64,000 nucleotides of DNA, from contig JANLHB010000016.1 of NCBI GenBank assembly GCA_024654625.1, forward strand, positions 64,137 through 128,136, read 5' to 3'. Shown here in pieces: positions 14,989 through 47,832 of this stretch (position 1 is its first letter; each line of letters opens with the position of its first letter). The notes under the pieces are model-generated. The model did not search any database. It was given only the letters and a program-made list of their open reading frames with translations, and was not told the origin of the DNA. The translations under genes and the position numbers were made by a program. The DNA is from Patescibacteria group bacterium (lineage in GTDB: Bacteria > Patescibacteriota > Minisyncoccia > GCA-002772825).

Positions 14989-16356
14989 ATGAATTATCTA
15001 TATTTTACAAAGAAATATTGGTTTCCGATTCTAGTGCTTCTCATTATCATCGTCAATGCTTTAATCTTCCTGCCCAAGTATGGCGCGTGGGGTGGACCCA
15101 CTGATGTGGAATATAACGAGACTGCTATTAACATGGCAAATGGCGACGGCTTTTCTTTGGGTGGAGAGAGAACGATGTTTCGTGAGCCGGCTTATCCTTT
15201 CTTTTTGGCTTTGAACTATAGGTTATTTGGGGTTAATTGGACAATAATTAGGATAGAGCAATTTTTATTGCTGTTTCTAATAATTTATCTTACCTATATA
15301 ATTTCTTATGAGATTTTTGGTGTTTTAACGGCGAGAATCGCCTCCTTGGCAATAGTTGTGTTGCCGATATTTCCTATATATGCCACAGATATTATTTCCG
15401 AAATTTTTGCCGCTTTTTTGGTAGTTTTATTTATTTATTTATTTTTAAAAAGTCTAAGCTTCAAAAAGGTGAGACCTTTTTATGTGGAAAAAGGTCTCAC
15501 CTTTTTGTTATTAAGCGGGTTGGTCTTTGGAATACTGGCTCTTACAAAAAGTATTTTTATTTTTTTACCTGTTTTGATTTTGCCGATCTATTTATTAAAG
15601 GACAGAAAATATGGTTTAAAAAATATAGTATTATTCTTTTTTGCTTTTTTAGTTATTGTATCCCCATGGGTTTATAGAAATTATATAAATTTTGGAAATA
15701 TGGCTATTGCCGATAGAGGGGGGATGCTTATGTATCTTCACTCTATAAAAAGCGAATTTAGCGTCAATAAATTGAAAGATTATGCTGTCGCCTCTTTAAC
15801 CGGAGAATATATCGTCCGTCTTTATAATCCGGATTTTAATATTGTTGAGGGAGAGGGGATATACCTGATGAATCAGCATAGGGCAGAACTTTTAAATAAT
15901 GGATTGAATTTCTCCCAAGCTGATGAAGTGATGTCAAAAGAGGCTGAAGTATTATATCTGAAGCATCCTGTTAAAAATTTGTTAATAGGCTTCTTGGAGG
16001 TAGCGAAAGTTAATGCGCCTATGGCGCCAAAGTACTCTATAATGTTCGCTTTCCCTGAAGATATCGGCAGTTCACTTTTTGAAAAGGTTATGAAAACGGG
16101 AATTGTCTTAATTATAAGGCTATTATGGGCTATTATCTTGCTTATGGCTTTTTGGGGCGCTTATAAGGCTTTAAGAGAAAAAAATATAAAAGCTATAGTG
16201 ATGTTATTTTTTATAATTTATCTAAATGGTGTAATTTTTTTTCTGCAAGGCGTGCCAAGATTTATTTTTGTAATTTATCCTTTTTATTTTATTTTTTTTG
16301 CTTTCAGTATTTCTATTATTTTAAATAAATTTTTTTATGGAAATAAAGAATTATAA
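14989..16356 (+). CDS. GT-C fold membrane glycosyltransferase, PMT_2/ArnT-like
   Basis: Has the FREPAYPFFLALNYRLFG motif. It is transcribed divergently from 13592-14965 with only 23 bp between the two start codons. Confidence 0.6.
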   Translation: MNYLYFTKKYWFPILVLLIIIVNALIFLPKYGAWGGPTDVEYNETAINMANGDGFSLGGERTMFREPAYPFFLALNYRLFGVNWTIIRIEQFLLLFLIIYLTYIISYEIFGVLTARIASLAIVVLPIFPIYATDIISEIFAAFLVVLFIYLFLKSLSFKKVRPFYVEKGLTFLLLSGLVFGILALTKSIFIFLPVLILPIYLLKDRKYGLKNIVLFFFAFLVIVSPWVYRNYINFGNMAIADRGGMLMYLHSIKSEFSVNKLKDYAVASLTGEYIVRLYNPDFNIVEGEGIYLMNQHRAELLNNGLNFSQADEVMSKEAEVLYLKHPVKNLLIGFLEVAKVNAPMAPKYSIMFAFPEDIGSSLFEKVMKTGIVLIIRLLWAIILLMAFWGAYKALREKNIKAIVMLFFIIYLNGVIFFLQGVPRFIFVIYPFYFIFFAFSISIILNKFFYGNKEL

Positions 16357-17062
16357 ATTAAAACTTACAATAGTAGTACCGGCTTTTAACGAAGAAAAGA
16401 ATCTTGAGTTTACCATAAGAGGACTCATGTACGTTCTAAATGAAAAACGCTTAGAAAATTATGAAATCATTATTTTTGATGACTCTTCATCTGATAGAAC
16501 AGGAATTATTGCTGATCGGCTTGCCTTAGAAAATAAGGGAATAAAGGTGATTCATAATAAGATAAATATGGGCTTTGGCTACAATTATAAGAAGGGTGTA
16601 GAAATGTCAGCCGGAGAGTATGTGATGATTATCCCAGGGGATAATGAAGTAATATCTTCTTCTTTTGGATACTTGATTGATTCAATAGGCAAGGCAGATA
16701 TAGTCTTAAGCTATATTGATAACGTAAAAGAACGATCTTGGATTCGCAGGATAATTTCATTTTTTTATGTTAAGTTTTTGAATTTTCTTTTTAGTTTGAA
16801 TATGAAATATTATAACGGGATAAGCATATATCCTGTTTCATTGGTTAAAAAAACTATGCCGACAACTTTTGGTTTTGCCTTTGCGGCGGAGATTGCAATA
16901 AGACTTTTAAAGTCAGGGGCGACTTATATTGAGGTTCCAATGTTTATAAGGCCAACTAATAAGACTTCGGCTTTTAGATTGAAAAATATTATAAGTGTTA
17001 TGAAAACTATAATTATTCTTTTCTGGAGTATTAATATAAAAAAAGAGAGAGCGGAAATTTGA
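16337..17062 (+). CDS. GT2 glycosyltransferase, DPM1/GtrB-like polyprenyl-phosphate glycosyltransferase
   Basis: IVVPAFNEEKNL, an IIFDDSSSD DxD-type motif, and a C-terminal membrane anchor. It is a paralogue of 21897-22619. Confidence 0.75.
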   Translation: MEIKNYKLKLTIVVPAFNEEKNLEFTIRGLMYVLNEKRLENYEIIIFDDSSSDRTGIIADRLALENKGIKVIHNKINMGFGYNYKKGVEMSAGEYVMIIPGDNEVISSSFGYLIDSIGKADIVLSYIDNVKERSWIRRIISFFYVKFLNFLFSLNMKYYNGISIYPVSLVKKTMPTTFGFAFAAEIAIRLLKSGATYIEVPMFIRPTNKTSAFRLKNIISVMKTIIILFWSINIKKERAEI

Positions 17063-17086
17063 CACCCTTTACTTTTCTCATATAAA
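17059..17086 (+). promoter_or_regulatory. sigma70-like promoter TTGACA-N16-TATAAA upstream of the GT9 gene
   Basis: TTGACA at 17059-17064 and TATAAA at 17081-17086. The downstream leader is shared with the three radical-SAM leaders. Confidence 0.5.
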
Positions 17087-17158
17087 AGTTAGTATATTTT
17101 TGGAAGATAAAATAAAATATTCGGTTCTTTAATTTAAACATAAATAAGGGGGTGTAAA

Positions 17159-18172
17159 GTGAAGAAAGAAAAAGTCCTTATAATAAAGCCCGGGTATTCC
17201 GAGACGCTTGTAAATGACATCGGAACAAAAACAAGCCTTGGTGATGTGCTAAGAAGCACTGTCATATTGCCTTTGTATAAAGATGCTCATGTCACATGGC
17301 TAGTAGATGAGAAGGCAGTATCTTTGCTCAAGGGGAATATCTACATCGACAGGATAATGACTTACGATCTCACGAGTATCTTACAGCTTCAGAAGGAGAG
17401 GTTTGATACTGTCATAAACCTTGAGAAGGTTGGCGGACTTTGCGCCCTCGCCGATAGTATAAATGGCTGGAGGCGATACGGTTTCAGGTTTGACCCTGAG
17501 ATCGGAGAAATCAAGGCTTATGACGGTTCTCAGCATGTCGTGGAGCTGTGTTCAAATCTTGACGGGAAACGCTCTAACCAGAAGCTATGGGAAGAGTTTC
17601 TCTTTGAGATGGTGGGCGCCAAGTGGGATGGCGAGATGCCTATTCTTGGTTACAAACCGAAATCAAAAGAGATTTTTGACATCGGCTTTAACCACAATGT
17701 CGGCGATAAATGGCCAATAAAGGCGTGGCCTAAAGATTACTGGGAAAAATTACAGCAATTTATCGGCGGAAGATTTTCTGTTTCATGGCAACAGGGACTC
17801 GGCTCTATAGAAGAGTATATAGAGTGGATAAGTTCTTGCCGTTTTATTATCACTAACGACAGTCTTGGTCTGCACATCGCTCACGCCCTTGATAAAAAGA
17901 TCATCGCCCTTTTTGGCCCAACTGTTTCAGGTGAAGTGTATGTTAGGAAAGGGATAAAGCTTTTACCTGATCCTAGGCCGGATTGCCTCCCGTGTATGAG
18001 CAATATATGCAAGCAAGGAGTGTCTTGCATGTATGACATAAGACCGGAGAGGGTGCTCGCTGAAGTCAACAATCTAATGTCGGGTGGCGAGACTTCTTCG
18101 GGCGAAAGTGATATTCAAGAGAAGCGCGGTCTTATCCCTTCTAAGCCGGATTTCAAAGGTATCGGCTATTGA
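17159..18172 (+). CDS. GT9 family glycosyltransferase (ADP-heptose:LPS heptosyltransferase-like)
   Basis: GTG start. An N-terminal KVLIIKPGYS..GD block and a C-terminal FIITNDSLGLHIAHALDKKIIALFGPT block match the GT9 signature. GC is higher than the surrounding genes. Confidence 0.6.
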   Translation: MKKEKVLIIKPGYSETLVNDIGTKTSLGDVLRSTVILPLYKDAHVTWLVDEKAVSLLKGNIYIDRIMTYDLTSILQLQKERFDTVINLEKVGGLCALADSINGWRRYGFRFDPEIGEIKAYDGSQHVVELCSNLDGKRSNQKLWEEFLFEMVGAKWDGEMPILGYKPKSKEIFDIGFNHNVGDKWPIKAWPKDYWEKLQQFIGGRFSVSWQQGLGSIEEYIEWISSCRFIITNDSLGLHIAHALDKKIIALFGPTVSGEVYVRKGIKLLPDPRPDCLPCMSNICKQGVSCMYDIRPERVLAEVNNLMSGGETSSGESDIQEKRGLIPSKPDFKGIGY

Positions 18173-18200
18173 TTTATGTCCGATCTTGATGTTCTATCGC

Positions 18201-18243
18201 CCCTCATCTTTTCTTATAAAAGAAAAGATGAGGGGTTTTTTTC
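18201..18243 (+). terminator. rho-independent terminator
   Basis: Stem CCCCTCATCTTTTC / GAAAAGATGAGGGG followed by T7. Confidence 0.75.
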
Positions 18244-18327
18244 TTGCAAAAATGCGAAATAATGATATCGTTTAAGTGGAAAAAAGAAGGTCTTTAACTT
18301 TTAAATATAAATAACAGGAGGGTTAAA
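18244..18327 (+). promoter_or_regulatory. promoter TTGCAA-N16-TATCGT plus conserved 5' leader (copy 1 of 3 near-identical units)
   Basis: TTGCAA at 18244-18249 and TATCGT at 18266-18271. The leader ...GTTTAAGTGGAAAA...GGTCTTTAACTTTTAAATATAAATAACAGGAGG precedes the ATG at 18328. Confidence 0.6.
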
Positions 18328-19203
18328 ATGGAGAAGAAAGTTATGTTGCCGTCAGTAAAGATTCCCGAGCCTTATAATTACATAGCGGTGTTTTTAACAC
18401 TTGCTTGTAACTTAAAGTGCAGTTACTGCATCAATGACTTTGAGTCAGGATCCAAAAAGAAAGGCGGGGAGCTTTTATCCGGAGATGAGTGGATAACCGG
18501 TCTAAAGAGGATTATCTCAAGATCAGACCTGCCTGTAACTCTTCAAGGCGGAGAGCCAAGCTTGCATAAGGATTTTATATACATACTTAATAATATAAAA
18601 TCCGAATTGCATGTAGATGTTCTTACGAATCTTCAGTTTAACGTTGATGAGTTTATCAAGAAGGTTGACCCGAATCGCGTGAAGAGAGAATCACCTTACG
18701 CATCTATACGAGTGAGTTATCACCCTGAGCAGGTGAACCTCGGCTCCTTGGTAAATAAAGTTTTGAAGATGCAGTATGTAGGGTTTCATATAGGTATCTG
18801 GGGCGTGATGCATCCTGCTCAGAAGGGGTATATCCTTGACGCCCAGAGACATTGCCTTTATCAGGGAATAGATTTTCGCCTTAAAGAATTTCTCGGTGAG
18901 CATAAAGGAAAGATGTACGGGGAATATAAGTATCCTGAAGCTTGCAATAGAGAATCAAAAAAAACGGTTCTTTGTAAGACGACTGAGCTTATCATCGGTC
19001 CTGACGGATCGGTATACCGCTGTACAGCTGACCTCTATGAAGGCAGAGAACCGGTAGGGCATATCCTTGATCCGGATTTCAGGATAGAGGATAAATACAG
19101 GCCATGTAACTGGTATGGCCATTGCAACCCGTGTGACATAAAAGTGAAGACCAATCGTCATCAAAAGTTTGGTCACACTTCTGTTGATATAATCGGAGCT
19201 TAG
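18328..19203 (+). CDS. radical SAM protein with C-terminal Cys-rich (SPASM/twitch-like) domain
   Basis: CNLKCSYC (CxxxCxxC) near the N-terminus and a TLQGGEP SAM motif. C-terminal cysteine clusters are CKTTELIIGPDGSVYRC and CNWYGHCNPC. It resembles BtrN/anSME-type dehydrogenases in size and layout. Confidence 0.7.
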   Translation: MEKKVMLPSVKIPEPYNYIAVFLTLACNLKCSYCINDFESGSKKKGGELLSGDEWITGLKRIISRSDLPVTLQGGEPSLHKDFIYILNNIKSELHVDVLTNLQFNVDEFIKKVDPNRVKRESPYASIRVSYHPEQVNLGSLVNKVLKMQYVGFHIGIWGVMHPAQKGYILDAQRHCLYQGIDFRLKEFLGEHKGKMYGEYKYPEACNRESKKTVLCKTTELIIGPDGSVYRCTADLYEGREPVGHILDPDFRIEDKYRPCNWYGHCNPCDIKVKTNRHQKFGHTSVDIIGA

Positions 19204-19220
19204 AGTAACTATTTAACACC

Positions 19221-19254
19221 AACCCCGCCAGTTTTAAATGGCGGGGTTTTTTTA
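19221..19254 (+). terminator. rho-independent terminator
   Basis: Stem AACCCCGCC / GGCGGGGTT followed by a T-run. Confidence 0.75.
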
Positions 19255-19334
19255 TTGCAAAAACATAGAATAATGGTATGGTTTAAATGGAAAAGGATAT
19301 ATAAACTTGAACTTTAAAATAAAAGGAGGCGTTA
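19255..19334 (+). promoter_or_regulatory. promoter TTGCAA-N16-TATGGT plus conserved leader (copy 2)
   Basis: Near-identical to 18244-18327 and 20541-20632. Confidence 0.6.
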
Positions 19335-20486
19335 ATGAAAAGCAATACGGATCTGGACAGCAACCTTATATTAGATGGCCATAAGCTCTGGCTTCCTGAA
19401 CACAGGGATCGTTTGGAAGCATGGCAGATGGGTGAAAGAATAGTGCCTATCACTATCGATATGGCGCTGACAAGAAGTTGCAACTATAGGTGCGAGTATT
19501 GTTACGCCACGCTTCAGGATAATGATATAAAGAAGATGACGCTTGATGTCATCTATCGTTTCCTTGATGATGCATCAGAGATGGGCGTTAAAGCGATAAG
19601 CTTTGTCTCAGACGGAGAGAGTACTTGTTCACCTCATCTTTATGATGCCATCTTGCGTGGGCATAACAACGGACTTAGTATGGCTCTTGGCACCGCTGGC
19701 TATCTTCTTAAAGACGAGCGGTTGGAAGAGATACTTCCGGCTTTGACATATTTGAGATTCAATATGTCGGCGGGTGTGCCTAGCCGGTATTCCGAGATCC
19801 ACGGTGTGCCGAAAGACTACTTCAATAAAGTGGTAAACACTGTTATAAAAGCGGTGGATATAAAGAGAAAGAAAAGTCTTGGTGTCACAATCGGACTTCA
19901 GATGGTCCTCCTCTCTAAGTATAAGGATCAGATCATACCTTTATCTCACTTGGGAAAAGTGCTCGGTGTAGACTATCTTGTACTGAAGCACTGCTCGGAT
20001 GACCAGAAGGGTTCACTAGGCGTAGATTTCTCGTCATATCATGAGCCTGATATTATGGCTCTACTTGATTCGGCAGAAGCGCTCTCTAGTGATTCCTATA
20101 CCGTTAAAGCGAAAAGGTCAAAGATCTTTAGTGACGGTAAAAGATGTTACTCTCGTTGCTATGGTCCGCCGTTTTTCTTACAGTTCTCTGGGAGTGGACT
20201 GGTTGCGCCGTGCGGGATGCTTTTCGGCAAAGAGTATAAGAAGTATCACATCGGCAATATCGCCGAGAAGTCGTTTAAGGAGATCTGGCAGAGCGATAGA
20301 TACTGGGAAGTGCTGAATATTCTCTCTTCAGGCAGGTTTGATGCACAGACTATGTGCGGGTGCCTGTGTATCCAGCATAAGATAAACGAGTTTCTTTGGT
20401 CTTTGAAAGAGGGAAATTCGGGTAGGATCATTGAGGAGTGTGACAAAATAGATAGTTTCGGGCTTATCCACCGTAACTTTCTTTAG
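19335..20486 (+). CDS. radical SAM/SPASM-domain protein
   Basis: CNYRCEYCY radical-SAM motif and C-terminal clusters CYSRCYGPPF...APCG...CGCLCIQH. It is a paralogue of 20573-21754. Confidence 0.7.
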   Translation: MKSNTDLDSNLILDGHKLWLPEHRDRLEAWQMGERIVPITIDMALTRSCNYRCEYCYATLQDNDIKKMTLDVIYRFLDDASEMGVKAISFVSDGESTCSPHLYDAILRGHNNGLSMALGTAGYLLKDERLEEILPALTYLRFNMSAGVPSRYSEIHGVPKDYFNKVVNTVIKAVDIKRKKSLGVTIGLQMVLLSKYKDQIIPLSHLGKVLGVDYLVLKHCSDDQKGSLGVDFSSYHEPDIMALLDSAEALSSDSYTVKAKRSKIFSDGKRCYSRCYGPPFFLQFSGSGLVAPCGMLFGKEYKKYHIGNIAEKSFKEIWQSDRYWEVLNILSSGRFDAQTMCGCLCIQHKINEFLWSLKEGNSGRIIEECDKIDSFGLIHRNFL

Positions 20487-20501
20487 TTCTTTCGGGTTTA
20501 T

Positions 20502-20540
20502 GACCCACGTTTCGCGTTAAGCGGAGCGTGGGTCTTTTTA
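20502..20540 (+). terminator. rho-independent terminator
   Basis: Stem GACCCACG / CGTGGGTC followed by T5. Confidence 0.7.
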
Positions 20541-20632
20541 TTGCAAAAATGTGAAATAATGATATGGTTTAAATGGAAAATATAAGATCTTTAACTTTAA
20601 ACTTTCTAAAATATAAGGGGGTTGCGATGAGT
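20541..20632 (+). promoter_or_regulatory. promoter TTGCAA-N16-TATGGT plus conserved leader (copy 3)
   Basis: TTGCAA at 20541-20546 and TATGGT at 20563-20568. It contains the same GTTTAAATGGAAAA and TCTTTAACTTTAAAC blocks as the other two copies. Confidence 0.6.
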
Positions 20633-21754
20633 GATAAATATCTTATAGACGGACAGAAGCTTAAGTATCACGAAGAGAGGGTAAAAAGATGGCTTAGTGC
20701 GACGACGTGGAAAAATGCGAAAAAGATTTATCCTATCTATCTTGAGATCTCGCCTTTTGGCGCTTGTAATCACCGTTGCGTTTTTTGCGGGGTTAAGACT
20801 TTAGGGTATAAGAATAATTTTATCAGGCGAGAAGTGCTTCTTGAGAGAATCAAGGAGATGGGGCGCCTGGGGATAAGAAGCATAATGTATGCTGGAGAAG
20901 GCGAGCCTCTTCTTCACTCTAATATCGCAGAGATTGTATCTGCGACTAAAGAGGCGGGGATTGATGCGGCTTTCACCACGAATGGCGTTTTTTTGGAGAA
21001 GATATTTCCTATCCTTGGCGACATCTCTTGGGTCAAAGTCAGTATAAATGCCGGCACCGCAGGCACTTATAAAGAGATCCATAAAGCCAAAGAAGGTAAT
21101 TTTGAGAAAGTCTTAGGAAATATCAGAAAAGCGTTTTGGCTTAAAAAGAATAAGAACTACTCCTGTGTTATCGGCGCGCAAATAGTTGTCCTTCCGGAGA
21201 ATGAGAACGAGATACTCATTCTCGCGGGCGAGTTGTCAAAAAAGGGTGCCGATTATCTTGTAGTCAAACCGTACTCTTCTCACCCACTTGATAACAATGA
21301 CGCTATTGATATCAAGAATCTCGGTTATTATGATCCTGGGTTTCTTGTGTCTTTAGAGTGGGTAGAACACCGCGCTTCCTCAAAAAATTTTAAGGTTATC
21401 GTCCGTTATAATGCCTTTAGAAGTGTTGCGGATAAAGAAAAATCTTATGATAGGTGTCTTTCAGTTCCTTTTTTCTGGGGATACATTACCGCAAAGGGCG
21501 ACGTGTATTCTTGCTCTGTCTTCTTTGGAGATGAAAGATTTAAGCTCGGTAATATAAACGAGCAGACTTTTCAGGAGATATGGGAAGGGGAAAAGAGACG
21601 ACAAAACTGGGAGATGATGAAAGATTTTGATGCCTCAGTGTGCCGTAAGGGGTGCCGAATGGATGCCTGCAATAGATTTCTGTCTTCAGTGAAAGAGCAA
21701 GGATTTCCTGTTCTTGTTGACAGAAAGGATATCAAACACATCAACTTTATATAA
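20573..21754 (+). CDS. radical SAM/SPASM-domain protein
   Basis: CNHRCVFCG motif and a glycine-rich AGEGEPLL motif. C-terminal clusters are CSVFF...CRKGCRMDAC. The start could instead be the ATG at ~20633 (MSDKY...) given the leader alignment. Confidence 0.65.
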   Translation: MENIRSLTLNFLKYKGVAMSDKYLIDGQKLKYHEERVKRWLSATTWKNAKKIYPIYLEISPFGACNHRCVFCGVKTLGYKNNFIRREVLLERIKEMGRLGIRSIMYAGEGEPLLHSNIAEIVSATKEAGIDAAFTTNGVFLEKIFPILGDISWVKVSINAGTAGTYKEIHKAKEGNFEKVLGNIRKAFWLKKNKNYSCVIGAQIVVLPENENEILILAGELSKKGADYLVVKPYSSHPLDNNDAIDIKNLGYYDPGFLVSLEWVEHRASSKNFKVIVRYNAFRSVADKEKSYDRCLSVPFFWGYITAKGDVYSCSVFFGDERFKLGNINEQTFQEIWEGEKRRQNWEMMKDFDASVCRKGCRMDACNRFLSSVKEQGFPVLVDRKDIKHINFI

Positions 21755-21772: not shown

Positions 21773-21805
21773 CAAACCCGTCTTGCGTCAGGCGGGTTTT
21801 TCTTT
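21773..21805 (+). terminator. rho-independent terminator
   Basis: Stem ACCCGTC / GGCGGGT (one G-U pair) followed by T5. Confidence 0.6.
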
Positions 21806-21817
21806 TGTCTATAATCT

Positions 21818-21843
21818 GTTCAATCCGCCATGGCGGATTGAAC
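21818..21843. repeat. 26-bp perfect palindrome GTTCAATCCGCCATGGCGGATTGAAC
   Basis: Read directly from the sequence. It lies just after the cassette terminator and before the downstream GT2 paralogue. Confidence 0.8.
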
Positions 21844-21896
21844 ATGGATTTAAGATATAGTTACTGGAAAAAAAGCGAGAAATCAGCTATATTTTA

Positions 21897-22619
21897 ATGA
21901 TGACAAAGCTTTCTATAATTGTTCCCGCCTATAATGAGGAGAGGGGATTAGCCTTGGCTGTGAACAGCCTTTTTTCTCTATTGTCGGAGAATAATATGGC
22001 AAGCGATGCCGAGATTTTAATATTCAATGATTGTTCTTTAGATAAGACCGGAGAGATTGCTAATGATCTTGCTAAGAATATAAATATAGTAAAGGTCTTT
22101 CATAATAAAAAAAATATGGGTCTTGGCTTCAACTTCAGAGAAGGGGCAAGACAATCCAAGGGAGAATATGTAACATGGTTTCCGGGCGATAACGAGAACT
22201 TACCGCAGTCTTTCGTAGACACTGTTAGTCGAATAGGCGAGGCGGATATCATCATTCCCTATACTGACAATATGGAAGTGAGGCCATTTTTACGCCGTCT
22301 TGTCTCCAGACTCTATACGGATTTAAATAATTTTCTCTTTAGACTGCATTTAAAATACTACAATGGTCTTTCTGTATATCGTCGCGATCTCCTGTTGTCT
22401 GTCTTGCCGAAGATTGGTGATAGTTTCGCTTTCTCCGCTCAGATACTCATTATGCTCTTGAAATCGGGCGCCAGTTTCGTAGAGGTGCCTATTAAAATAC
22501 AATCAAAGCCGGGCGGTAAGAGTTCTGCCTTTAGAATGAAAAATATAATAGGAGTTATAAAAGCCATTCTTTCTCTGTTCTGGAGAATTAATATAAAGAG
22601 AGAAAGAGTAAAAATATAA
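21897..22619 (+). CDS. GT2 glycosyltransferase, DPM1/GtrB-like (paralogue of 16337-17062)
   Basis: LSIIVPAYNEE, an FNDCSLD motif, and a C-terminal tail SAFRMKNIIGVIKAILSLFWRINIKRERVKI nearly identical to the tail of 16337-17062. Confidence 0.75.
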   Translation: MMTKLSIIVPAYNEERGLALAVNSLFSLLSENNMASDAEILIFNDCSLDKTGEIANDLAKNINIVKVFHNKKNMGLGFNFREGARQSKGEYVTWFPGDNENLPQSFVDTVSRIGEADIIIPYTDNMEVRPFLRRLVSRLYTDLNNFLFRLHLKYYNGLSVYRRDLLLSVLPKIGDSFAFSAQILIMLLKSGASFVEVPIKIQSKPGGKSSAFRMKNIIGVIKAILSLFWRINIKRERVKI

Positions 22620-33084: not shown

Positions 33085-34548
33085 ATGAAAAAAATAATTT
33101 TTATAAACCCGCCCACGCCCGAACTTGGGGTAATGGTTATAAGAGATTTGGACCGCTCTGGCCGAAAGACGCGCGAGAAGACAATCTGGCCACAGACAAA
33201 CCTGGCTTATTTGGCAGCGGTTATGAAGGATAAAGGTTTCAGCGTAGACCTGATGGATTGTATTGCTGACGAGATTCATTGGAGTGAGCTAGGAGGGAAT
33301 TTTGAGGAAATTATAGATAAGAAAAAACCGGATTATATCCTTTTTAATGCTATAAGCTCCACTATCTCAAATGATATGAGAGTAGCGAGTATTGCTAAGA
33401 AGGTTGGCGCCAAGAGCATCGCTGTCGGTTCTCATGTCACTGCTTTGCCGAAAGAGAGTATAGAGAAATTCAAAGACCTTGATTTTGTAATTGAAGGCGA
33501 AGCTGAGGAGACTCTGTCAGAGCTTGTGGATGTTGTTGAGAAAGGAGGAGATTTATCTCTCGTGAAAGGTATTGCTTACAGAAAAGAAAGCGGGGAAGCT
33601 ATTGCTAATGAAAAGAGGCCTTTGATAAAAGATCTTGATTCTCTCCCTATCCCTCTTCATGAGCTTATGCCTATAGAGAAGTATAATCTTCCTTTTATCG
33701 GCTCTAAATTTACTTTCGTTACAGCTTCGAGGGGGTGCCCTTTCCGTTGTATGTTTTGCCGTTCGCCGATTGCTTGGAATAGAATTTTTAGGCAACGTTC
33801 AAATGACAGTATTCTTGCGGAGTTAAGATACCTAAAGAAGCTTGGCATTAAAAATATTTTATTTCACTCAGATACTTTTACTGTAAATAAGAAAGAGATT
33901 ATTGAGTTATGCAAAAGAATGGTTAATGAAAATTTAGGTATAAGATGGATGTGTAACTCCAGAGTAGATACTGTGGACTTTGAAACGCTTGAGTGGATGA
34001 AAAGAGCCGGATGCGAGATGGTAATGTTTGGCCTAGAGTCAGGTTCTCAGAAAGTTTTAGATAATGCCAGGAAAGATATTACCATAGAGAAGATACGAGA
34101 GAGTGTTAATAATGCCGCCCGTGCCGGTATCAAGGTGTGGGGTTACTTTATAATAGGTCTACCCGGAGAAAATAAGGGAACTGTAGATGAGACAATCAAG
34201 TTAGCTAAAGAATTACCCTTAACTCTGGCTAATTTTGCAGTTGCTTCTCCTTACCCTGGTACGGATTTCTTTAAGCTTGTCACTGAAGAAGGCTGGCTTA
34301 CAAGCAGTAACTGGGAAGATTTTGATCAGAATTATTCAGCTATCGTAGATTATCCTGATTTCTCAAGTGAAGAGATTGTAAATAGCATGAAAAGGGCTTA
34401 CAAAGAGTTTTATTTAAGACCAAAAGCTGTCTGGAATATGCTAAAAGGAATAAGAAGTTTCCACGATGTTAAGGTCTTAACTGACGTTGCTTGGACGCAC
34501 CTTAAGTGGATTCTTTTCTATAAAAAATCCGCAAAGCCAGCCAAATAA
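33085..34548 (+). CDS. B12-binding-domain radical SAM enzyme (class B-like)
   Basis: An N-terminal Rossmann-like cobalamin-binding region is followed by ASRGCPFRCMFC (CxxxCxxC) and the radical-SAM core. Confidence 0.7.
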   Translation: MKKIIFINPPTPELGVMVIRDLDRSGRKTREKTIWPQTNLAYLAAVMKDKGFSVDLMDCIADEIHWSELGGNFEEIIDKKKPDYILFNAISSTISNDMRVASIAKKVGAKSIAVGSHVTALPKESIEKFKDLDFVIEGEAEETLSELVDVVEKGGDLSLVKGIAYRKESGEAIANEKRPLIKDLDSLPIPLHELMPIEKYNLPFIGSKFTFVTASRGCPFRCMFCRSPIAWNRIFRQRSNDSILAELRYLKKLGIKNILFHSDTFTVNKKEIIELCKRMVNENLGIRWMCNSRVDTVDFETLEWMKRAGCEMVMFGLESGSQKVLDNARKDITIEKIRESVNNAARAGIKVWGYFIIGLPGENKGTVDETIKLAKELPLTLANFAVASPYPGTDFFKLVTEEGWLTSSNWEDFDQNYSAIVDYPDFSSEEIVNSMKRAYKEFYLRPKAVWNMLKGIRSFHDVKVLTDVAWTHLKWILFYKKSAKPAK

Positions 34549-41339: not shown

Positions 41340-41435
41340 ATGGCTACAAAAAGAAAAGCTGCGAAGAAAAAGACTGTAAAGAAAGCTGCAAAGAAAAAGA
41401 CTGCAAAAAGAAAACCAGCAAAGAGAAAAAAATAA
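41340..41435 (+). CDS. 31-aa Lys/Ala-rich basic peptide (MATKRKAAKKKTVKKAAKKKTAKRKPAKRKK), histone-H1/Hc1-like tail composition
   Basis: The ORF is below the 60-aa track cutoff. It has an internal nucleotide tandem repeat, a strong terminator immediately downstream (41456-41483), and an AAGGTCGA motif 31 nt upstream. Confidence 0.4.
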   Translation: MATKRKAAKKKTVKKAAKKKTAKRKPAKRKK

Positions 41436-41455
41436 GATAAAGCGCAAAGCTTTAA

Positions 41456-41483
41456 CCCCCGCCAAGGCGGGGGTTTTAGTTTG
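41456..41483 (+). terminator. rho-independent terminator
   Basis: CCCCCGCC aag GGCGGGGG followed by TTTTAGTTT. Confidence 0.7.
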
Positions 41484-41513
41484 CTTAAATACATGCTAAT
41501 ATATAGGACTAAT

Positions 41514-44018
41514 ATGTCATTTTTATCTAAAATAAATAATAGCATTTTTAATAAGGAAAGCCCTTTACTCAAAGAAGGCCGAAATCTTGTGCTTAAAATC
41601 AACGATATAGAAATTGATATCAGTACTCTGAAAGATGAAGATCTCCCTTTAAAAACAATTGAATTAAAAGACAGAATATCAAAAGGAGAAACGCTGGATG
41701 ATATTTTACCTGATGCTTTTGCCCTAGTAAGAGAAGCGGCAAAAAGGACTCTTGGACAGAGGCATTATGATGTTCAGTTATTAGGCGGTATAGTGCTCCA
41801 TAAAGGAGGAATTGCTGAGATGAAAACAGGAGAAGGTAAAACTCTTGTTGCCACTCTTCCTGCATATCTTAACGCACTCTCTGGAAAAGGAGTTCATGTT
41901 GTTACTGTTAATGATTATCTTTCAAGAAGAGATGCTGTATGGATGGGACAAGTTTATCATTATCTTGGTCTTTCTGTAGGATGCATAAATCACGAATCTT
42001 CTTTCTTATATGATCCAACTCATGAAAAAAATGACTTGGATAAAGAAAGAGACGAGAAAGGAAGTTACCAAGTTGTTCATGAGTTTTTGAAACCGTGTTC
42101 CAGGAGGAAGGCTTATTCAGCTGATATAACTTATGGCACTAATAATGAGTTTGGTTTTGATTATTTGAGAGACAACATTGTCTATAATGAAAGCGAGTTG
42201 TCTCAGAGAGATTTTCATTATGCGATTGTTGATGAGATTGACTCTATATTGATAGACGAAGCAAGGACGCCTCTCATCATCTCCGCCCCGTCGGCTGAGT
42301 CAGAGGATCTTTATAAGACATTTGCTAAGATTGCCGAGAAGATGAATAGAGAGGAAGATTATGAAGTTGATGAAAAGCTTCGCGCTATATCTTTGACAGA
42401 GGAGGGGATAGATAAAGCGGAAAAAATTCTTGGTATAGGAAATATCTATACCGAGAAAGGAATTAAATATGTGCACCACCTGGAGACCGCCGTTCGCGCC
42501 AAGGCGCTCTTTGAAAGGGATAAAGATTATGTGGTTAAAAATGACGAAGTGATAATAGTAGATGAATTTACGGGGAGGCTTCAGCCGGGCAGACGCTGGT
42601 CGGAGGGTCTTCATCAGGCTGTTGAAGCAAAAGAAGGAGTTTCTGTGCAAAGAGAAAGCCGGACTTTTGCAAGCGTTACTTTCCAAAATTATTTTAGGAT
42701 GTATGAGAAGCTTTCCGGCATGACGGGAACCGCCATGACTTCAGCCGAAGAATTTCACAAAGTCTACAATTTGGATGTTGCTTCTATCCCTACGAACAAG
42801 CCTTTATTGAGAAAAGACAATGAGGATTTTATTTTTCAGACATCAGGGGGAAGGTTTAAGGCAGTGGCGGAGAAAGTGAAAGAGCTCCACGGCAAAGACC
42901 AGCCTGTGCTTGTGGGAACAGTCTCCATAGAGAGAAATGAATATCTTTCATTGCTGTTAAAGAAAGAGGGCGTGCCACACGAAGTTTTAAATGCAAAGAA
43001 TCATGAAAAAGAAGGAGAGATCATAGCCCAAGCAGGAAAGCTTGGCAGAGTGACTATTGCCACCAATATGGCCGGCCGAGGAGTGGACGTTGTCTTAGGC
43101 GGCAATCCTCCTGATAAAGAGGAACAAGAAAAAGTGAAAGAACTTGGCGGTCTTTATGTGATAGGTACAGGGCGACATGAAGCAAGACGCATAGATAACC
43201 AGTTAAGAGGACGTTCCGGCAGGCAAGGCGACCCAGGAGAGACACGATTTTATGTGTCTCTTGAGGATGACTTAATGAGGGTCTTTGGTTCGGACCGTAT
43301 TAAGTCTATGATGGGCAGGTTTGGCATCCCAGAAGACCAGCCTATTGAAAATAGATTAGTCACAAAATCTCTTGAAGCGGCTCAGACTAAAATAGAGGGA
43401 ATGAATTTTGACTCTAGGAAACATATTTTAGAGTATGACGATGTTTTAAATAAACAGAGGAAAGCTATATATTCCAGGAGGAGGAATGCGCTCTTAGGAG
43501 ATAGAGATTCTTTACTTGCTAATATAGAGGATGTTTATAAAAATTATGAGGAGTTATTTGATGTTGTTATTAAAAAAAGAGAAGAGATGGGCGACGAGTT
43601 ATTTTTTAAAAACTTAAGAATGACTATGTTACAGAATATTGATATGCTTTGGCTTGAGCATTTGGAAGCGATGGATTATGTGCGTTCTTCTGTGAGACTT
43701 CGGGCTTTCGGTCAGAGAGATCCTTTGATTGAATACAAGAATGAAGGTTTACGACTTTTCCATGAGCTTGAAGAGACAATAGATTCTAATCTGATAAAAC
43801 TTGTTCCTCATATGGGTGGGGGTGTCTTTATGGAAGAGAAGAAAAAACTTGAAGAAGTGCACAAAAGCGGCGCACTGATAGGTGGTAGCAATCCTCCCAA
43901 GGCGGATGCTCAAACTGGCAATTCCGCAAGAAGCGGAAGCCAGTTTGGCAAAGTCGGACGCAATGATCCCTGTCCGTGTGGTAGTGGAAAAAAATATAAA
44001 AAGTGTCATGGGTCATGA
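41514..44018 (+). CDS. secA: preprotein translocase ATPase SecA
   Basis: DEAD-like motor motifs (MKTGEGKT Walker A, DEIDSILIDEA), preprotein cross-linking and helical scaffold regions, and a C-terminal zinc-binding CPCGSGKKYKKCHG. The start was chosen at MSFLSKI; the track ORF begins 33 nt earlier. Confidence 0.95.
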   Translation: MSFLSKINNSIFNKESPLLKEGRNLVLKINDIEIDISTLKDEDLPLKTIELKDRISKGETLDDILPDAFALVREAAKRTLGQRHYDVQLLGGIVLHKGGIAEMKTGEGKTLVATLPAYLNALSGKGVHVVTVNDYLSRRDAVWMGQVYHYLGLSVGCINHESSFLYDPTHEKNDLDKERDEKGSYQVVHEFLKPCSRRKAYSADITYGTNNEFGFDYLRDNIVYNESELSQRDFHYAIVDEIDSILIDEARTPLIISAPSAESEDLYKTFAKIAEKMNREEDYEVDEKLRAISLTEEGIDKAEKILGIGNIYTEKGIKYVHHLETAVRAKALFERDKDYVVKNDEVIIVDEFTGRLQPGRRWSEGLHQAVEAKEGVSVQRESRTFASVTFQNYFRMYEKLSGMTGTAMTSAEEFHKVYNLDVASIPTNKPLLRKDNEDFIFQTSGGRFKAVAEKVKELHGKDQPVLVGTVSIERNEYLSLLLKKEGVPHEVLNAKNHEKEGEIIAQAGKLGRVTIATNMAGRGVDVVLGGNPPDKEEQEKVKELGGLYVIGTGRHEARRIDNQLRGRSGRQGDPGETRFYVSLEDDLMRVFGSDRIKSMMGRFGIPEDQPIENRLVTKSLEAAQTKIEGMNFDSRKHILEYDDVLNKQRKAIYSRRRNALLGDRDSLLANIEDVYKNYEELFDVVIKKREEMGDELFFKNLRMTMLQNIDMLWLEHLEAMDYVRSSVRLRAFGQRDPLIEYKNEGLRLFHELEETIDSNLIKLVPHMGGGVFMEEKKKLEEVHKSGALIGGSNPPKADAQTGNSARSGSQFGKVGRNDPCPCGSGKKYKKCHGS

Positions 44019-44098: not shown

Positions 44099-44140
44099 TA
44101 TTACCAACAGAAAGTGTCACGGGAATTAACCAATAAAAAT

Positions 44141-44389
44141 ATGAGCACAAACATGAGAAATTCACACTTAGAAAAATCGAAGCGAAACCAGCAGATCAAG
44201 AAGTTGCTGGCCAGCGGAAGGACTCAGGCGGAAGTCGCCAGAGAGTTCAACATCACTGTCCAGCGACTCAACCAACTGGTGCAGAAGTGGGTCTGGCAAG
44301 GACTCCTCGAAAGGAATGAGGAAGGGTTTGCCATGCCCTCAAAGGTCGAACACCAGCAAAAGTTATCCACAACCAATAAAAAAATATGA
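44141..44389 (+). CDS. small HTH DNA-binding protein (first gene of the phage-like region)
   Basis: The GRTQAEVAREFNITVQRLNQLVQKW helix-turn-helix resembles sigma-region-4 or resolvase HTH domains. Codon usage switches to GC-rich here. Confidence 0.45.
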   Translation: MSTNMRNSHLEKSKRNQQIKKLLASGRTQAEVAREFNITVQRLNQLVQKWVWQGLLERNEEGFAMPSKVEHQQKLSTTNKKI

Positions 44390-44682
44390 ACTACGACAAA
44401 TACCAATTTGTCCTCGACTGGGATGATCTCCCCGAGGACTTCAAAGAAGAAAAGATAACCGAGTACATCGAAAAAGGCGGGAAGCGAGCATGCGAGGAAT
44501 GTGACGGGACCGGCTCAACCTCGATACCGGCAAGCCAAGAGGCCGGCGAGATCAAGGACGAAGAAACCCAAACATGCAGTCACTGCGGCGGATCAGGCGA
44601 GGTCGATCCCGATCCAGAGGATCTTCACCAACGAGAAGAAGCCGAAGATTACATCAAAGCGCACTTCCCGATTTATTTCTAA
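44386..44682 (+). CDS. small zinc-finger protein with DnaJ-like CxxCxGxG repeats
   Basis: CEECDGTGS and a later CSHCGGSGE repeat. Confidence 0.45.
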   Translation: MNYDKYQFVLDWDDLPEDFKEEKITEYIEKGGKRACEECDGTGSTSIPASQEAGEIKDEETQTCSHCGGSGEVDPDPEDLHQREEAEDYIKAHFPIYF

Positions 44683-44717
44683 AGGTCGAATTAATAAACC
44701 AATTAAAAATTACAACC

Positions 44718-44966
44718 ATGACAAAAGCACAATTGAAAAAATCCATCGATAAGGAGATTCGAGCGATGAGAAGCAGAATCACCGACATCGTAAAAAACCG
44801 AATCGCCGATCAGATCATCGATGACCTCGGAGACGAAACCGGCGAACTGATGGGAAAGCTGACAGTGGATTTCGTAGACGATCCCAAACTTACCGATTAC
44901 GCCTACGGAAAGATATACGATGCCCTGCTCGAGGAACTCATTAAGTACCTCAAGGGATCGAAATAA
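44718..44966 (+). CDS. hypothetical phage protein
   Basis: An ORF consistent in strand and spacing with its neighbours. It is preceded by the TAAAGGTCGAA motif. Confidence 0.4.
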   Translation: MTKAQLKKSIDKEIRAMRSRITDIVKNRIADQIIDDLGDETGELMGKLTVDFVDDPKLTDYAYGKIYDALLEELIKYLKGSK

Positions 44967-45001
44967 AGGTCGAACATTGAAAATCTAAAACCAACATCAC
45001 T

Positions 45002-45481
45002 ATGACAAACGAATGGCAAGAAAAACTCAAGAAGTTTCAAGAGGCCAGAAAAGCGAAATCCGAATGGTACGAAAAGACCGGCCGGGAAATCCTCGAAGAG
45101 CACCAGATAACGGCCTGCTACAAGTGCGACTGCCGAGGATGGGGACGGGAGACGAAACACAGCCGAGCCCACGCTCATACCAAGAAGCGAATCGTCTGCC
45201 TCGATGCTGTGCCAAAAGGATACAAGTCATTCTTCACCCTCCTGCACGAAATAGGACACATCGTAGCGGAGAAAGCGGACTACTCGAGCGGAGTGCCGAG
45301 ATCGCTGGCCGAACACAACGCTACCGAGTGGGCATATAAGACGCTGAAAGAACATGGCCTGCCGATCAAACGGAAAGTCAAAGGAGAATACGACAGCTAC
45401 ATCAAAGAAAAAGTCGCGCGAGGTCTGAGGCGAGGATTAAAAGAAATCCCAAAAGAACTTCGAAAGCATTTCAAAAGTTAG
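45002..45481 (+). CDS. putative HExxH zinc-metallopeptidase-like protein
   Basis: FFTLLHEIGHIV contains HExxH. The protein is small, consistent with ImmA/IrrE- or SprT-like regulators. Confidence 0.45.
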   Translation: MTNEWQEKLKKFQEARKAKSEWYEKTGREILEEHQITACYKCDCRGWGRETKHSRAHAHTKKRIVCLDAVPKGYKSFFTLLHEIGHIVAEKADYSSGVPRSLAEHNATEWAYKTLKEHGLPIKRKVKGEYDSYIKEKVARGLRRGLKEIPKELRKHFKS

Positions 45482-45540
45482 CAACTGACTCTGCTCTCGA
45501 TGAATCGAGATCAGAGATGAGGGGCTAAAAATAAAAGCAA

Positions 45541-45737
45541 AAGGTCGACCCTCAAGAATCAAGCACATTAATAACCTTATAACTGTTCCCGACCCGCTTC
45601 TGCCGAAGCGAGAAGGGATCTCCCGCCAAGCGGGACGAGTTGGAGCACAGCTATAAGAACTAACCCAGAACCTCTTCCCGAAAGGGAGCTCGGCGAAAGC
45701 CGAAGTTGGAGCAGAGGGAAAGGAACAAAACACAATC
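45541..45737 (+). ncRNA. candidate structured ncRNA (multiple short hairpins with GAAA/GNRA-type loops, internal repeat GTTGGAGCA)
   Basis: The hairpins are GCTTCtgccGAAGC, CCCGCcaaGCGGG, CTCCC-GAAA-GGGAG and TCGGC-GAAA-GCCGA. No convincing ORF lies on the gene strand. Confidence 0.3.
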
Positions 45738-47816: not shown

Positions 47817-47832
47817 GGGGGGAAGAAACTAT

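What the first reader, a model, noticed from the sequence alone, without database searches (positions are those of the whole stretch)
18244..20632. Three near-identical ~90-nt promoter-plus-leader units driving the three radical-SAM genes, with the GT9 gene sharing the leader
Upstream of each rSAM gene the sequence TTGCAAAAA[YR]NGAAATAATG[AG]TAT[CG]GTTTAA[AG]TGGAAAA...TCTTTAACTTTAAA...GGAGG recurs with only a few substitutions. This gives a -35 TTGCAA, a 16-nt spacer, and a -10 TATCGT or TATGGT. The GT9 gene has its own TTGACA-N16-TATAAA promoter, but its leader contains the same GGTTCTTTAATTTAAACATAAATAAGGGGG block. Conservation extends well past the -10 into the transcribed leader. This points to a shared cis-regulatory element, either an RNA element or a DNA operator, that co-regulates four separately transcribed genes.
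Basis: seen in the sequence. Interest (0 to 1): 0.65.

Follow-up and report, generated by a model that had tools for sequence, protein, structure and literature searches.

The report
Repeated terminator–promoter–leader modules in Parcubacteria
Each gene of a sugar-modification gene set in an uncultured Parcubacteria genome has its own near-identical terminator, promoter, short leader and ribosome-binding site. These four genes are the only ones in 64 kb with a ribosome-binding site, so the repeats are real and selected expression modules, not a riboswitch.

Summary
Three ~90-nt copies sit at 18233-18327, 19244-19334 and 20530-20626, where chance predicts none, and the GT9 leader shares a 12-nt box plus a Shine-Dalgarno (SD) site.

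Each copy follows a strong intrinsic terminator. The conserved blocks of the promoter half all map onto ordinary sigma-70 promoter elements. No extra operator is needed to explain the promoter half.

The transcribed part is a 46-52-nt A/U-rich leader with no conserved structure. It carries a box, CTTTAACTTTTAAATATAA, that contains the T7 gene-10 'epsilon' motif, 16-38 nt before a GGAGG SD.

The same modules precede every cassette gene in eight related Patescibacteria assemblies. Copies are about 80% identical to one another, while synonymous sites between those genomes are saturated. That indicates purifying selection, and gene conversion has also occurred.

Gene gain, loss and replacement have module boundaries as their edges. 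This resembles the PeSL regulatory cassettes of T4-like phages.

New finding: the four cassette genes are the only ones of 53 in the window with an SD. The same holds in the relatives.

Verdict: these are insulated single-gene expression modules, a new variant of a known kind. Co-regulation through a shared promoter is plausible. An RNA switch is not supported, and an operator is neither needed nor excluded.

The parts
17068..17095 (+). Conserved GT9 promoter candidate: TTTACT (17068-17073), 16-nt spacer, TAGTAT (17090-17095).
   Evidence: CTTTACTTTT and the TA..AT of the -10 are invariant in four orthologous loci. TTGACA is not conserved.
17127..17158 (+). GT9 leader box CTTTAATTTAAA (17127-17138) and SD GGGGG (17148-17152), ahead of the GTG start at 17159.
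   Evidence: In L004 the box stays next to the SD despite a ~50-nt insertion upstream of it.
17159..18172 (+). GT9-family glycosyltransferase (heptosyltransferase-like), first gene of the cassette.
   Evidence: Pfam PF01075; NCBIfam heptosyltransferase models, below their cut-offs.
18199..18243 (+). Intrinsic terminator after GT9: 17-bp stem (18199-18236) followed by a T run that abuts the next -35.
   Evidence: perfect 16-nt arms (I2).
18244..18327 (+). Unit 1 (rSAM1): -35 TTGCAA 18244-18249; TG 18263-18264; -10 TATCGT 18266-18271; predicted start G 18278; box 18292-18305; SD GGAGG 18317-18321.
   Evidence: 69.8 bits, E = 2.5e-20.
18328..19203 (+). Radical SAM gene 1 (291 aa).
   Evidence: Pfam PF04055.
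19221..19254 (+). Intrinsic terminator after rSAM1 (stem 19221-19248) plus T run.
19255..19334 (+). Unit 2 (rSAM2): -35 19255-19260; -10 TATGGT 19277-19282; predicted start G 19289; box CTTGAACTTTAAAA 19306-19319; SD GGAGG 19325-19329.
   Evidence: 48.4 bits, E = 1.2e-13.
19335..20486 (+). Radical SAM/SPASM gene 2 (383 aa).
   Evidence: Pfam PF04055 + PF13186.
20502..20540 (+). Intrinsic terminator after rSAM2 (14-bp stem 20502-20534) plus T run.
   Evidence: The orthologous hairpins in L002-L004 keep the stem through paired substitutions.
20541..20626 (+). Unit 3 (rSAM3): -35 20541-20546; -10 TATGGT 20563-20568; predicted start 20575; box 20589-20601; SD GGGGG 20617-20621. It is a chimera: a type-A promoter joined to the tail of the type-B leader found before rSAM3 in other genomes.
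   Evidence: 60.1 bits, E = 2.7e-17.
20627..21754 (+). Radical SAM/SPASM gene 3 (375 aa from the SD-associated ATG). The ORF list extends it to 20573, which lies inside the leader.
21774..21805 (+). Intrinsic terminator closing the cassette.

Best explanation
The repeats are paralogous copies of a composite expression module. It makes every gene of a heptose-type sugar-modification cassette (GT9 plus three radical SAM enzymes) an insulated, single-gene unit.

Each module has four parts, in order:
1. A G+C-rich hairpin with a T run. It stops transcription coming from upstream.
2. A complete sigma-70-type promoter set directly against that T run: TTGCAAAAAT, 6-7 variable bases, AATGnTATGGT, an AT-rich discriminator, and a pyrimidine-purine start 7 nt after the -10.
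3. A 46-52-nt A/U-rich 5' leader without stable structure. It carries the box (A)G-N2-CTTTAAC-TTTTAAATATAA, which contains the T7 gene-10 'epsilon' motif UUAACUUUAA.
4. A strong GGAGG Shine-Dalgarno site 9-16 nt before the start codon.

Because all cassette genes read from essentially the same promoter and initiation region, they are expressed together and at similar, probably high, levels without being an operon. The rest of this genome initiates translation without an SD. The box plus SD is therefore the cassette's own translation signal.

The copies are held to a consensus by purifying selection. They are occasionally homogenised by gene conversion. They also serve as homology patches at which genes have been inserted, lost or swapped.

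Shown here: repeat anatomy, terminator hairpins, conservation against saturated synonymous sites, absence of RNA structure, SD exclusivity, conversion tracts, and indels bounded by modules.

Inferred: promoter activity and the start sites, high expression, and the translational role of the box.
For: Repeat reality and specificity:
- Three copies where chance predicts 0.
- A profile search finds no other copy in 64 kb.
- Strict pattern scans of 185,579 species genomes, of JGI metagenomes and of viral contigs returned only homologous cassettes.

Terminators: hairpins of 10-17 bp plus a T run lie directly upstream of each unit and after rSAM3. In one search, most cassette units in related loci show the same arrangement (a few have extra sequence between hairpin and -35).

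Promoter half: the 13-unit consensus tTTTTC-TTGCAAAAAT-ncgAnat-AATGn-TATggT-TTAaa-YR-GAAAAtA shows that the invariant columns are the known promoter elements and the mid-spacer varies (element definitions from PMC12641261).

Selection: four-fold degenerate site identity between genomes is 0.22-0.63. Unit cores are 0.71-0.93 identical, with means of 0.79-0.82 whether the copies are paralogous or orthologous.

No RNA structure: no Rfam hit at gathering score, 0 alifold pairs, and leader fold z-scores of -0.15, +0.90, +0.26, -0.14, -0.18 and -1.13, with one at -2.62.

SD exclusivity:
- Anti-SD duplex energies are -10.8 to -14.0 kcal/mol for the 4 cassette genes and weaker than -6.5 for 48 of the other 49. 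The exception, at the mis-called secA start, is a terminator stem.
- In L001-L004, 17 of 17 cassette genes reach -9.1 or stronger, against no flanking gene stronger than -8.3.
- Housekeeping genes of a relative lack an SD.

Box tied to SD-led genes: the one other SD-led gene found, an inserted 137-aa membrane protein in L135, also has TTGCAT-N17-TATACT, GTTCTTTAAATTTAAAA and GGGAGGTGG.

Conversion and shuffling:
- The two units flanking the E1 gene in L011 share a 72-nt identical run within unrelated flanks.
- The window's rSAM3 unit is a type-A/type-B chimera.
- The E1 dehydrogenase gene is present in L003, L007/L011 and L008 but absent from the window, L002 and L004.
- rSAM2 exists as two ~45-50% identical allelic types between conserved modules.

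Codon composition: cassette GC3 is 0.44-0.50 against 0.21-0.42 elsewhere. The higher overall G+C of the cassette genes recurs in four diverged genomes.
Against: - No transcription or translation data exist, so the promoters, start sites and terminators are predictions.
- The simple promoter scan did not list these sites. TTGCAA plus TATGGT gives only 8 of 12 consensus matches, so the call rests on the TG extension, position and conservation.
- Box spacing is not rigid on either side: 46-63 nt (once 113) from the unit's 5' end and 16-38 nt to the SD. Spacing therefore does not separate a translational role from a DNA-level role.
- The epsilon resemblance is an A/U-rich 10-mer, and an 18-nt box pattern alone gives more than 120 single, apparently chance matches in viral contigs.
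- Some Parcubacteria reportedly lack the anti-SD in 16S rRNA (PMC9297842). The 16S rRNA of this genome was not available. If it lacks CCUCC, the SD reading fails.
- High expression is inferred, not measured.
Confidence: 0.6

Rival explanations
1. Shared DNA operator. A trans-acting repressor or activator binds the leader box (an imperfect TTTAA-N1-3-TTAAA dyad at about +15 to +30) or the TTTAAA just after the -10. It switches all cassette genes together, for example in response to iron, oxygen or sugar supply.
For: The box lies where roadblock repressors usually act and has partial dyad symmetry. It is conserved in all 22 cassette leaders examined. It is not rigidly spaced from the SD. GT9 uses a different promoter yet keeps the box.
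Against: Half-site spacing varies between 1, 2 and 3 nt among copies, which is unusual for a dimeric regulator. No regulator gene was seen in the cassette genes or in the window proteins scanned; about ten window ORFs of 120 aa or more (the 457-aa ORF next to the cassette and eight or nine in the prophage) were never scanned. The box also precedes an unrelated SD-led membrane-protein gene in L135. Similar YCTTTnAAAA boxes appear in leaders of distant Patescibacteria. The conserved columns of the promoter half are fully accounted for by RNA polymerase contacts.
Confidence: 0.15
2. Recombination modules first. The repeats persist mainly because they act as portable regulatory cassettes that let genes be inserted, deleted and exchanged by homologous recombination, as proposed for phage PeSLs. 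Expression control is secondary.
For: E1 gene presence or absence and rSAM2 allele replacement are bounded by units. There is a 72-nt identical tract in L011 and a chimeric unit in the window. The architecture matches the PeSL description (PMC2839356).
Against: Only a handful of events appear across eight assemblies. Most unit pairs keep position-specific (orthologous) signatures, such as TATC in the rSAM1 units and TGG-TATGG in the rSAM2 units. Selection on function therefore dominates over turnover. The cassette sits at the same site in all genomes.
Confidence: 0.15
3. Structured RNA control element in the leader: a riboswitch, RNA thermometer, or leader-peptide attenuator.
For: Conservation continues into the transcribed region. 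One leader (rSAM3) folds better than shuffles, z = -2.6. Some units have a short ORF starting at the conserved ATGGAAAA.
Against: Rfam gives no hit at gathering score, and the sub-threshold hits are the terminators. RNAalifold predicts 0 pairs in 18 units. Six of seven leaders fold like shuffles. The leader is only ~50 nt and A/U-rich. The would-be start codon of a leader peptide is ATG, GTG, ACA, ACG or ATA in different copies, and the reading frames differ.
Confidence: 0.03
4. Neutral leftovers. The similarity reflects recent duplication or gene conversion of intergenic DNA, with no selected function.
For: Gene conversion clearly happens.
Against: Units are about 80% identical between genomes whose synonymous sites are saturated. 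The variable positions fall exactly where promoters tolerate change. The adjacent genes are not similar to one another.
Confidence: 0.03

Closest known systems
PeSLs (promoter-early stem-loops) of T4-like phages (Arbiol et al. 2010, PMC2839356; Comeau et al. 2014, PMC4122927)
   Same: Both are composite ~100-bp intergenic cassettes made of a stem-loop terminator, a strong sigma-70-type promoter with an AT/T-rich upstream tract, and an SD and start codon at the 3' end. Both are repeated before successive genes and coincide with insertions, deletions and replacements between related genomes.
   Different: These modules are in a cellular Parcubacteria chromosome, not a phage. They occur in one metabolic cassette of 4-5 genes rather than ~50 copies in hyperplastic regions. 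The hairpin is always upstream of the -35, and its sequence is not part of the conserved repeat. There is an extra conserved leader box. No mini-circles or promoter/terminator assays exist. There is no sequence homology to PeSLs.
T7 gene 10 leader 'epsilon' translational enhancer (UUAACUUUAA upstream of a strong SD; quoted in PMC9590205)
   Same: The rSAM3 leader contains UUAACUUUAA exactly, and rSAM1 has it with one extra U. In both systems the motif lies in an unstructured A/U-rich stretch a short distance 5' of a strong SD.
   Different: The distance to the SD is larger and variable (16-38 nt). The core conserved here is CUUUAAC plus UUUAAA. Neither the enhancer activity nor any rRNA pairing was tested, and a 10-nt A/U-rich identity can arise by chance.
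Extended -10 (TGn) sigma-70 promoters with AT-rich discriminator and Y-R start element (PMC12641261)
   Same: TG lies one base upstream of TATGGT. There is an AT tract next to the -35, an AT-rich discriminator, and Y-R at 7 nt after the -10. All the conserved columns fit this architecture.
   Different: The -35 is TTGCAA rather than TTGACA. The promoter is butted directly against the preceding terminator's T run. Activity is unmeasured in an uncultured lineage.
SD-poor translation systems, such as Bacteroidota and the Parcubacteria subgroup reported to lack the anti-SD motif (PMC9297842)
   Same: The host genome shows essentially no SD in front of 49 of 53 genes, including secA and murB.
   Different: A small set of genes here keeps strong, conserved SDs together with a second upstream box. 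This exception has not been described for CPR bacteria in the papers found.

Membership tests
PeSL-type composite regulatory cassette | Sigma-70-like promoter with an AT-rich tract upstream of the -35 | tested here: met
   TTGCAA-N16-TATGGT with a TG extension, preceded by a T run. Promoter activity itself was not tested.
PeSL-type composite regulatory cassette | Associated stable stem-loop acting as terminator or attenuator | tested here: met
   Hairpins of 10-17 bp plus a T run lie directly 5' of each unit. Their position differs from most PeSL subclasses, which place the hairpin within or next to the promoter.
PeSL-type composite regulatory cassette | SD and start codon at the 3' end; about 100 bp of conservation repeated before successive genes | tested here: met
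PeSL-type composite regulatory cassette | Located in hyperplastic regions of T4-like phage genomes, mostly before ORFans, tens of copies per genome | tested here: not met
   The host is a cellular genome with SecA and MurB. There are 3-5 copies, all in one cassette, and none in viral contigs.
PeSL-type composite regulatory cassette | Indels and replacements between related genomes bounded by the cassettes | tested here: met
   E1 gene indel, rSAM2 allele swap, chimeric unit, and a 72-nt identical tract.
PeSL-type composite regulatory cassette | Experimentally shown promoter and terminator activity; excised mini-circles | not testable with these tools
   Needs reporter assays and PCR on environmental or cultured material.
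T7 g10 epsilon translational enhancer | UUAACUUUA(A) motif 5' of the SD in the mRNA leader | tested here: met
   Exact in the rSAM3 unit (20591-20600). One-base variants occur in the other units and relatives. Motif as quoted in PMC9590205.
T7 g10 epsilon translational enhancer | Raises translation of the downstream gene | not testable with these tools
   Needs reporter or toeprint assays.
Riboswitch or other structured cis-regulatory RNA | Match to a curated RNA family | tested here: not met
   No Rfam hit at gathering score. Permissive hits are terminators, far below threshold.
Riboswitch or other structured cis-regulatory RNA | Conserved secondary structure supported by covariation | tested here: not met
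   RNAalifold predicts 0 pairs over 18 units. Single-sequence z-scores are about 0.
Intrinsic (Rho-independent) terminator | G+C-rich hairpin followed directly by a T run at the gene's 3' end | tested here: met
   Four sites in the window. Orthologous hairpins keep their stems through paired changes or are replaced by different hairpins.
Sigma-54 promoter (considered because of TTGCA) | GG-N10-GC with a conserved -24 element | tested here: not met
   A GG lies 10 nt upstream only where the terminator stem happens to supply it. It is absent in L002_rSAM2, L004_rSAM2 and L007_E1.

The most novel reading that the evidence does not exclude
In this Parcubacteria lineage almost no gene uses a Shine-Dalgarno site. 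The conserved box plus GGAGG may then form a separate, dedicated translation-initiation channel reserved for a few leadered, probably acquired, genes. Their synthesis could be switched as a group at the ribosome, for example by availability of the 16S rRNA anti-SD tail or of a box-binding factor, independently of the bulk proteome.
Probability: 0.12. Interest if true: 0.8.

Novelty: new variant of a known kind. Interest (0 to 1): 0.5.

Why it matters
Almost nothing is known experimentally about how candidate-phyla-radiation bacteria start transcription and translation.

These modules give a compact, strongly conserved and repeatedly used set of parts (terminator, promoter, leader, SD) from Parcubacteria. 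The parts could be tested directly and used in the emerging genetic systems for Patescibacteria.

They show that phage-style 'regulatory cassette' architecture, with its side effect of modular gene shuffling, also exists in a cellular genome.

SD sites are confined to one cassette in an otherwise SD-free genome. This makes it directly testable whether SD/anti-SD pairing still works in Parcubacteria, some of which are reported to lack the anti-SD.

Tried and rejected
- Rfam at gathering and permissive thresholds returned only sub-threshold terminator look-alikes.
- RNAalifold and single folds showed no structure.
- Leader peptide: the ATGGAAAA 'start' is not conserved as a start codon, and the reading frames differ.
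- Sigma-54 reading of TTGCA: the upstream GG is supplied by the terminator stems and is absent in several copies.
- A Fur-box-like reading of GATAATGATAT was considered by eye. The matching columns are the TG and -10 positions, and no dyad is conserved. It was dropped as unsupported.
- Box-to-SD against box-to-promoter spacing was meant to separate RNA-level from DNA-level function. Both distances vary, so the test is inconclusive.
- Box pairing with start-codon regions appears in two leaders, but with different partners and insignificant z-scores.
- The viral-contig scan with the box alone returned more than 120 single hits in AT-rich contigs, judged chance and not followed. The viral scan with the promoter core returned none.
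- Exact look-ups of the window's own rSAM2 and GT4 proteins were not on record, so the source contig could not be walked.
- The unit profile does not detect the GT9 leaders, the L135 module, or the distant cassettes L012-L014. Those similarities are at motif level only.
- Whether the elevated GC3 reflects horizontal origin or selection could not be decided. C- and G-ending codons are both enriched.
Full report
**What is there**

The window is a piece of an uncultured Parcubacteria/Patescibacteria chromosome. Its SecA is 100% identical to two NCBI MAG proteins named that way.

- Positions 1-44 kb hold a large cell-envelope glycan locus: GT1/GT2/GT4 transferases, PMT_2, methyltransferases, flippase and Wzy, followed by murB and secA.
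- Inside it sit four genes: GT9 (17159-18172), rSAM1 (18328-19203), rSAM2 (19335-20486) and rSAM3 (20627-21754).
- This block has 40-43% G+C per kb against 31-34% for the preceding kilobases. Its GC3 is 0.44-0.50 against 0.21-0.42 in all other host genes.

**Check of the observation**

- The repeat finder reports one three-member family of ~90 nt.
- A sequence profile built from 18 homologous units finds only these three in 64 kb on both strands (E <= 1e-13). The next hit has E = 0.41.
- The genes behind the units are not similarly related. rSAM2 and rSAM3 share 27% identity, and rSAM1 shares only the CxxxCxxC region. The repeat is therefore not a by-product of gene duplication.
- The GT9 leader shares the box CTTTAATTTAAA and a GGGGG SD but not the rest of the unit.
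Alignment of four orthologous GT9 upstream regions shows that TTTACT-N16-TA(A/G)(T/G)AT is the conserved promoter instead.

**Anatomy**

- Every unit is preceded by a strong hairpin plus T run, and a fourth terminator closes the cassette. The T run abuts the -35.
- Thirteen non-redundant 'type A' units from five assemblies give the consensus tTTTTC-TTGCAAAAAT-ncgAnat-AATGn-TATggT-TTAaa-YR-GAAAAtA.
- The invariant columns are the following. All are described elements of bacterial core promoters (PMC12641261):
  - the -35;
  - an A tract next to the -35;
  - the TG of an extended -10;
  - the -10;
  - an AT-rich discriminator;
  - a pyrimidine-purine pair exactly 7 nt after the -10;
  - a purine-rich initial transcribed stretch.
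- The middle of the spacer is free to vary. The promoter half therefore needs no extra operator.
- Predicted starts are 18278, 19289 and 20575, which gives 5' leaders of 46-52 nt.
- The leader has a variable stretch, then the box (A)G-N2-CTTTAAC-TTTTAAATATAA. GGAGG or GGGGG follows 16-38 nt downstream of the box, and the start codon lies 9-16 nt after the SD.
- In rSAM3 the box contains UUAACUUUAA, the 'epsilon' enhancer motif of the T7 gene 10 leader as quoted in PMC9590205.

**Related sequences**

- rSAM3 has close relatives (67-86% identity) only in a few metagenomic contigs.
- Those contigs carry the same cassette at the same place, between PMT_2 and GT2. There are 100-170-nt gaps between cassette genes, while the flanking genes are packed or overlapping.
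- Every cassette gene in them is preceded by the same terminator-promoter-leader module.
- A strict pattern scan of one genome per 185,579 species found three loci, and a scan of JGI metagenomes found two. All are this cassette. Viral contigs gave none.
- Between these genomes, four-fold degenerate sites in the adjacent genes are only 22-63% identical, which is near saturation. Unit cores are 71-93% identical, with a mean of about 0.8 whether the two copies are in one genome, orthologous, or neither.
- This is the signature of purifying selection towards one consensus. Position-specific signatures show the copies are old paralogues: TATC in rSAM1 units and TGG-TATGG in rSAM2 units.

**Gene conversion and modular change**

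- In L011 the two units flanking an extra E1 (thiamine-diphosphate dehydrogenase/transketolase-like) gene share a 72-nt perfectly identical run inside unrelated flanks.
- In L002-L004 and L008, rSAM3 has a distinct 'type B' unit: TTGCAGAAAGATG...TATGGTAATAGTGGTATAAT.
- In the window, and in its closest relative L001 as far as that contig extends (its last 58 nt upstream of rSAM3), the promoter half has been replaced by type A while the leader tail AACTTTCTAAAATATAAGG remains type B.
- The E1 gene is present in L003, L007/L011 and L008, and absent in the window, L002 and L004.
- rSAM2 occurs as two allelic types, 45-53% identical, where the other cassette genes are 58-81%.
- All these differences have module boundaries as their edges. 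This is the behaviour described for PeSL cassettes in T4-like phages (PMC2839356, PMC4122927).

**RNA element?**

Nothing in Rfam reaches threshold. RNAalifold predicts no pair in the 18-unit alignment. Leader folds are indistinguishable from shuffles in six of seven cases. The conserved ATGGAAAA is not kept as a start codon. A riboswitch, thermometer or attenuator is therefore not supported.

**The unexpected part**

- Of 53 genes in the window, only the four cassette genes have a Shine-Dalgarno site. Their anti-SD duplex energies are -10.8 to -14.0 kcal/mol.
- All others are weaker than -6.5, apart from a terminator stem in front of a mis-called secA start. A scan for any GGAGG-type motif correctly placed before an ORF finds only internal chance hits besides these four.
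- In L001-L004, 17 of 17 cassette genes have an SD and none of the flanking genes does.
- In a relative from the same lineage (L135), GAPDH, SecA, MurB, RpiB, Rpe, transketolase and others lack one.
- The single exception there is an inserted 137-aa membrane-protein gene. It also carries TTGCAT-N17-TATACT, a GTTCTTTAAATTTAAAA box and GGGAGGTGG.
- The flanking GT2 gene looks leaderless, with TATATT 6 nt before the ATG, conserved in six loci.
- The box therefore travels with the SD, not with the cassette as such. This favours a role in translation initiation over a cassette-specific operator, though the spacing data do not settle it.
- A published survey reports that the anti-SD motif is missing from the 16S rRNA of about half of Parcubacteria (PMC9297842). 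Whether this genome keeps it could not be checked and is the most decisive missing fact.

**Function of the cassette (inference)**

- More distant homologues in Paceibacterota-type contigs (L012, L013) again combine GT9, several radical SAM enzymes and E1 alpha/beta. Each leadered gene there has its own terminator, TTGACAAAAT-type promoter, YCTTTnAAAA leader and SD.
- In Methylomonas the same enzymes sit in a tight operon with genes whose Pfam domains fit GmhA (SIS_2), HldE (PfkB plus CTP_transf_like) and an epimerase, which I read as ADP-heptose synthesis genes.
- The cassette thus most likely makes and transfers a modified heptose.

**Verdict**

The modules are insulated, single-gene expression units with shared promoter and initiation signals. 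They are selected, occasionally homogenised, and act as recombination joints.

Co-regulation through a common promoter is the simplest reading (confidence about 0.6). A box-binding regulator (0.15) and a primarily recombinational role (0.15) remain open. A structured RNA or neutral origin is very unlikely.

This is a new variant of a known kind. Its interest is moderate, raised by the SD exclusivity.

Noticed in passing
window 44100-64000: Prophage or integrated phage-like element: exonuclease, DnaC-like loader, ParB-like protein, terminase, DNA methyltransferase, portal and major head protein. It has 43-54% G+C and strong A-over-T skew, and none of its genes has an SD. In a relative with 88% identical SecA (L135), secA is followed directly by ftsA-like, NUDIX and gatB genes, so the element is inserted just after the secA terminator.
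   Followed up: partly
window 21817-21844; L001 ~1240-1290; L135 ~1097-1125: A perfect 28-bp palindrome, TGTTCAATCCGCCATGGCGGATTGAACA, lies between the last cassette terminator and the GT2 promoter. It is unique in the window. L001 and L135 carry different palindromes with a shared ATTGAATGTTG core at comparable intergenic spots, and L002-L004 have none. This may be a small palindromic insertion element.
   Followed up: partly
window 21861-21899 (GT2 gene 21897-22619): The GT2 gene downstream of the cassette appears leaderless. TTTACTGG...TATATT is followed 6 nt later by the ATG, there is no SD, and the whole stretch is nearly invariant in six loci.
   Followed up: partly
window 16337-17062 and 21897-22619: Two GT2 paralogues (49% identity) bracket the cassette. 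The upstream copy is missing in L002-L004, where PMT_2 directly precedes GT9.
   Followed up: no
window 41340-41438: A 32-codon, lysine- and alanine-rich ORF (MATKRKAAKKKTVKKAAKKKTAKRKPAKRKK) followed by a strong terminator, just upstream of secA. L135 has a small gene at the same place.
   Followed up: no
window 20573-20626: The mechanical ORF for rSAM3 starts at an in-frame ATG inside the conserved promoter/leader (ATGGAAAAT), 54 nt upstream of the SD-associated ATG. Automatic annotation could over-extend this gene.
   Followed up: yes
window 41481-41516: The ORF list starts secA at a TTG inside the preceding terminator. The database proteins (834 aa) indicate the ATG at 41514, which follows a TAATAT -10-like hexamer by about 11 nt and has no SD.
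   Followed up: partly
L002 8601-9845, L004 3771-5039 versus window 19335-20486: rSAM2 exists in two forms: 383-385 aa, and 414-422 aa with a C-terminal insertion. They are only 45-53% identical although the neighbouring genes are 58-81%. The E1 dehydrogenase gene was seen only in loci with the short form (L003, L008; the L011 rSAM2 is truncated), and the window has the short form but no E1.
   Followed up: partly
window 33085-34548: A further, B12-binding radical SAM gene lies in the same glycan locus. It has no SD and no module, and it is conserved in L135.
   Followed up: no
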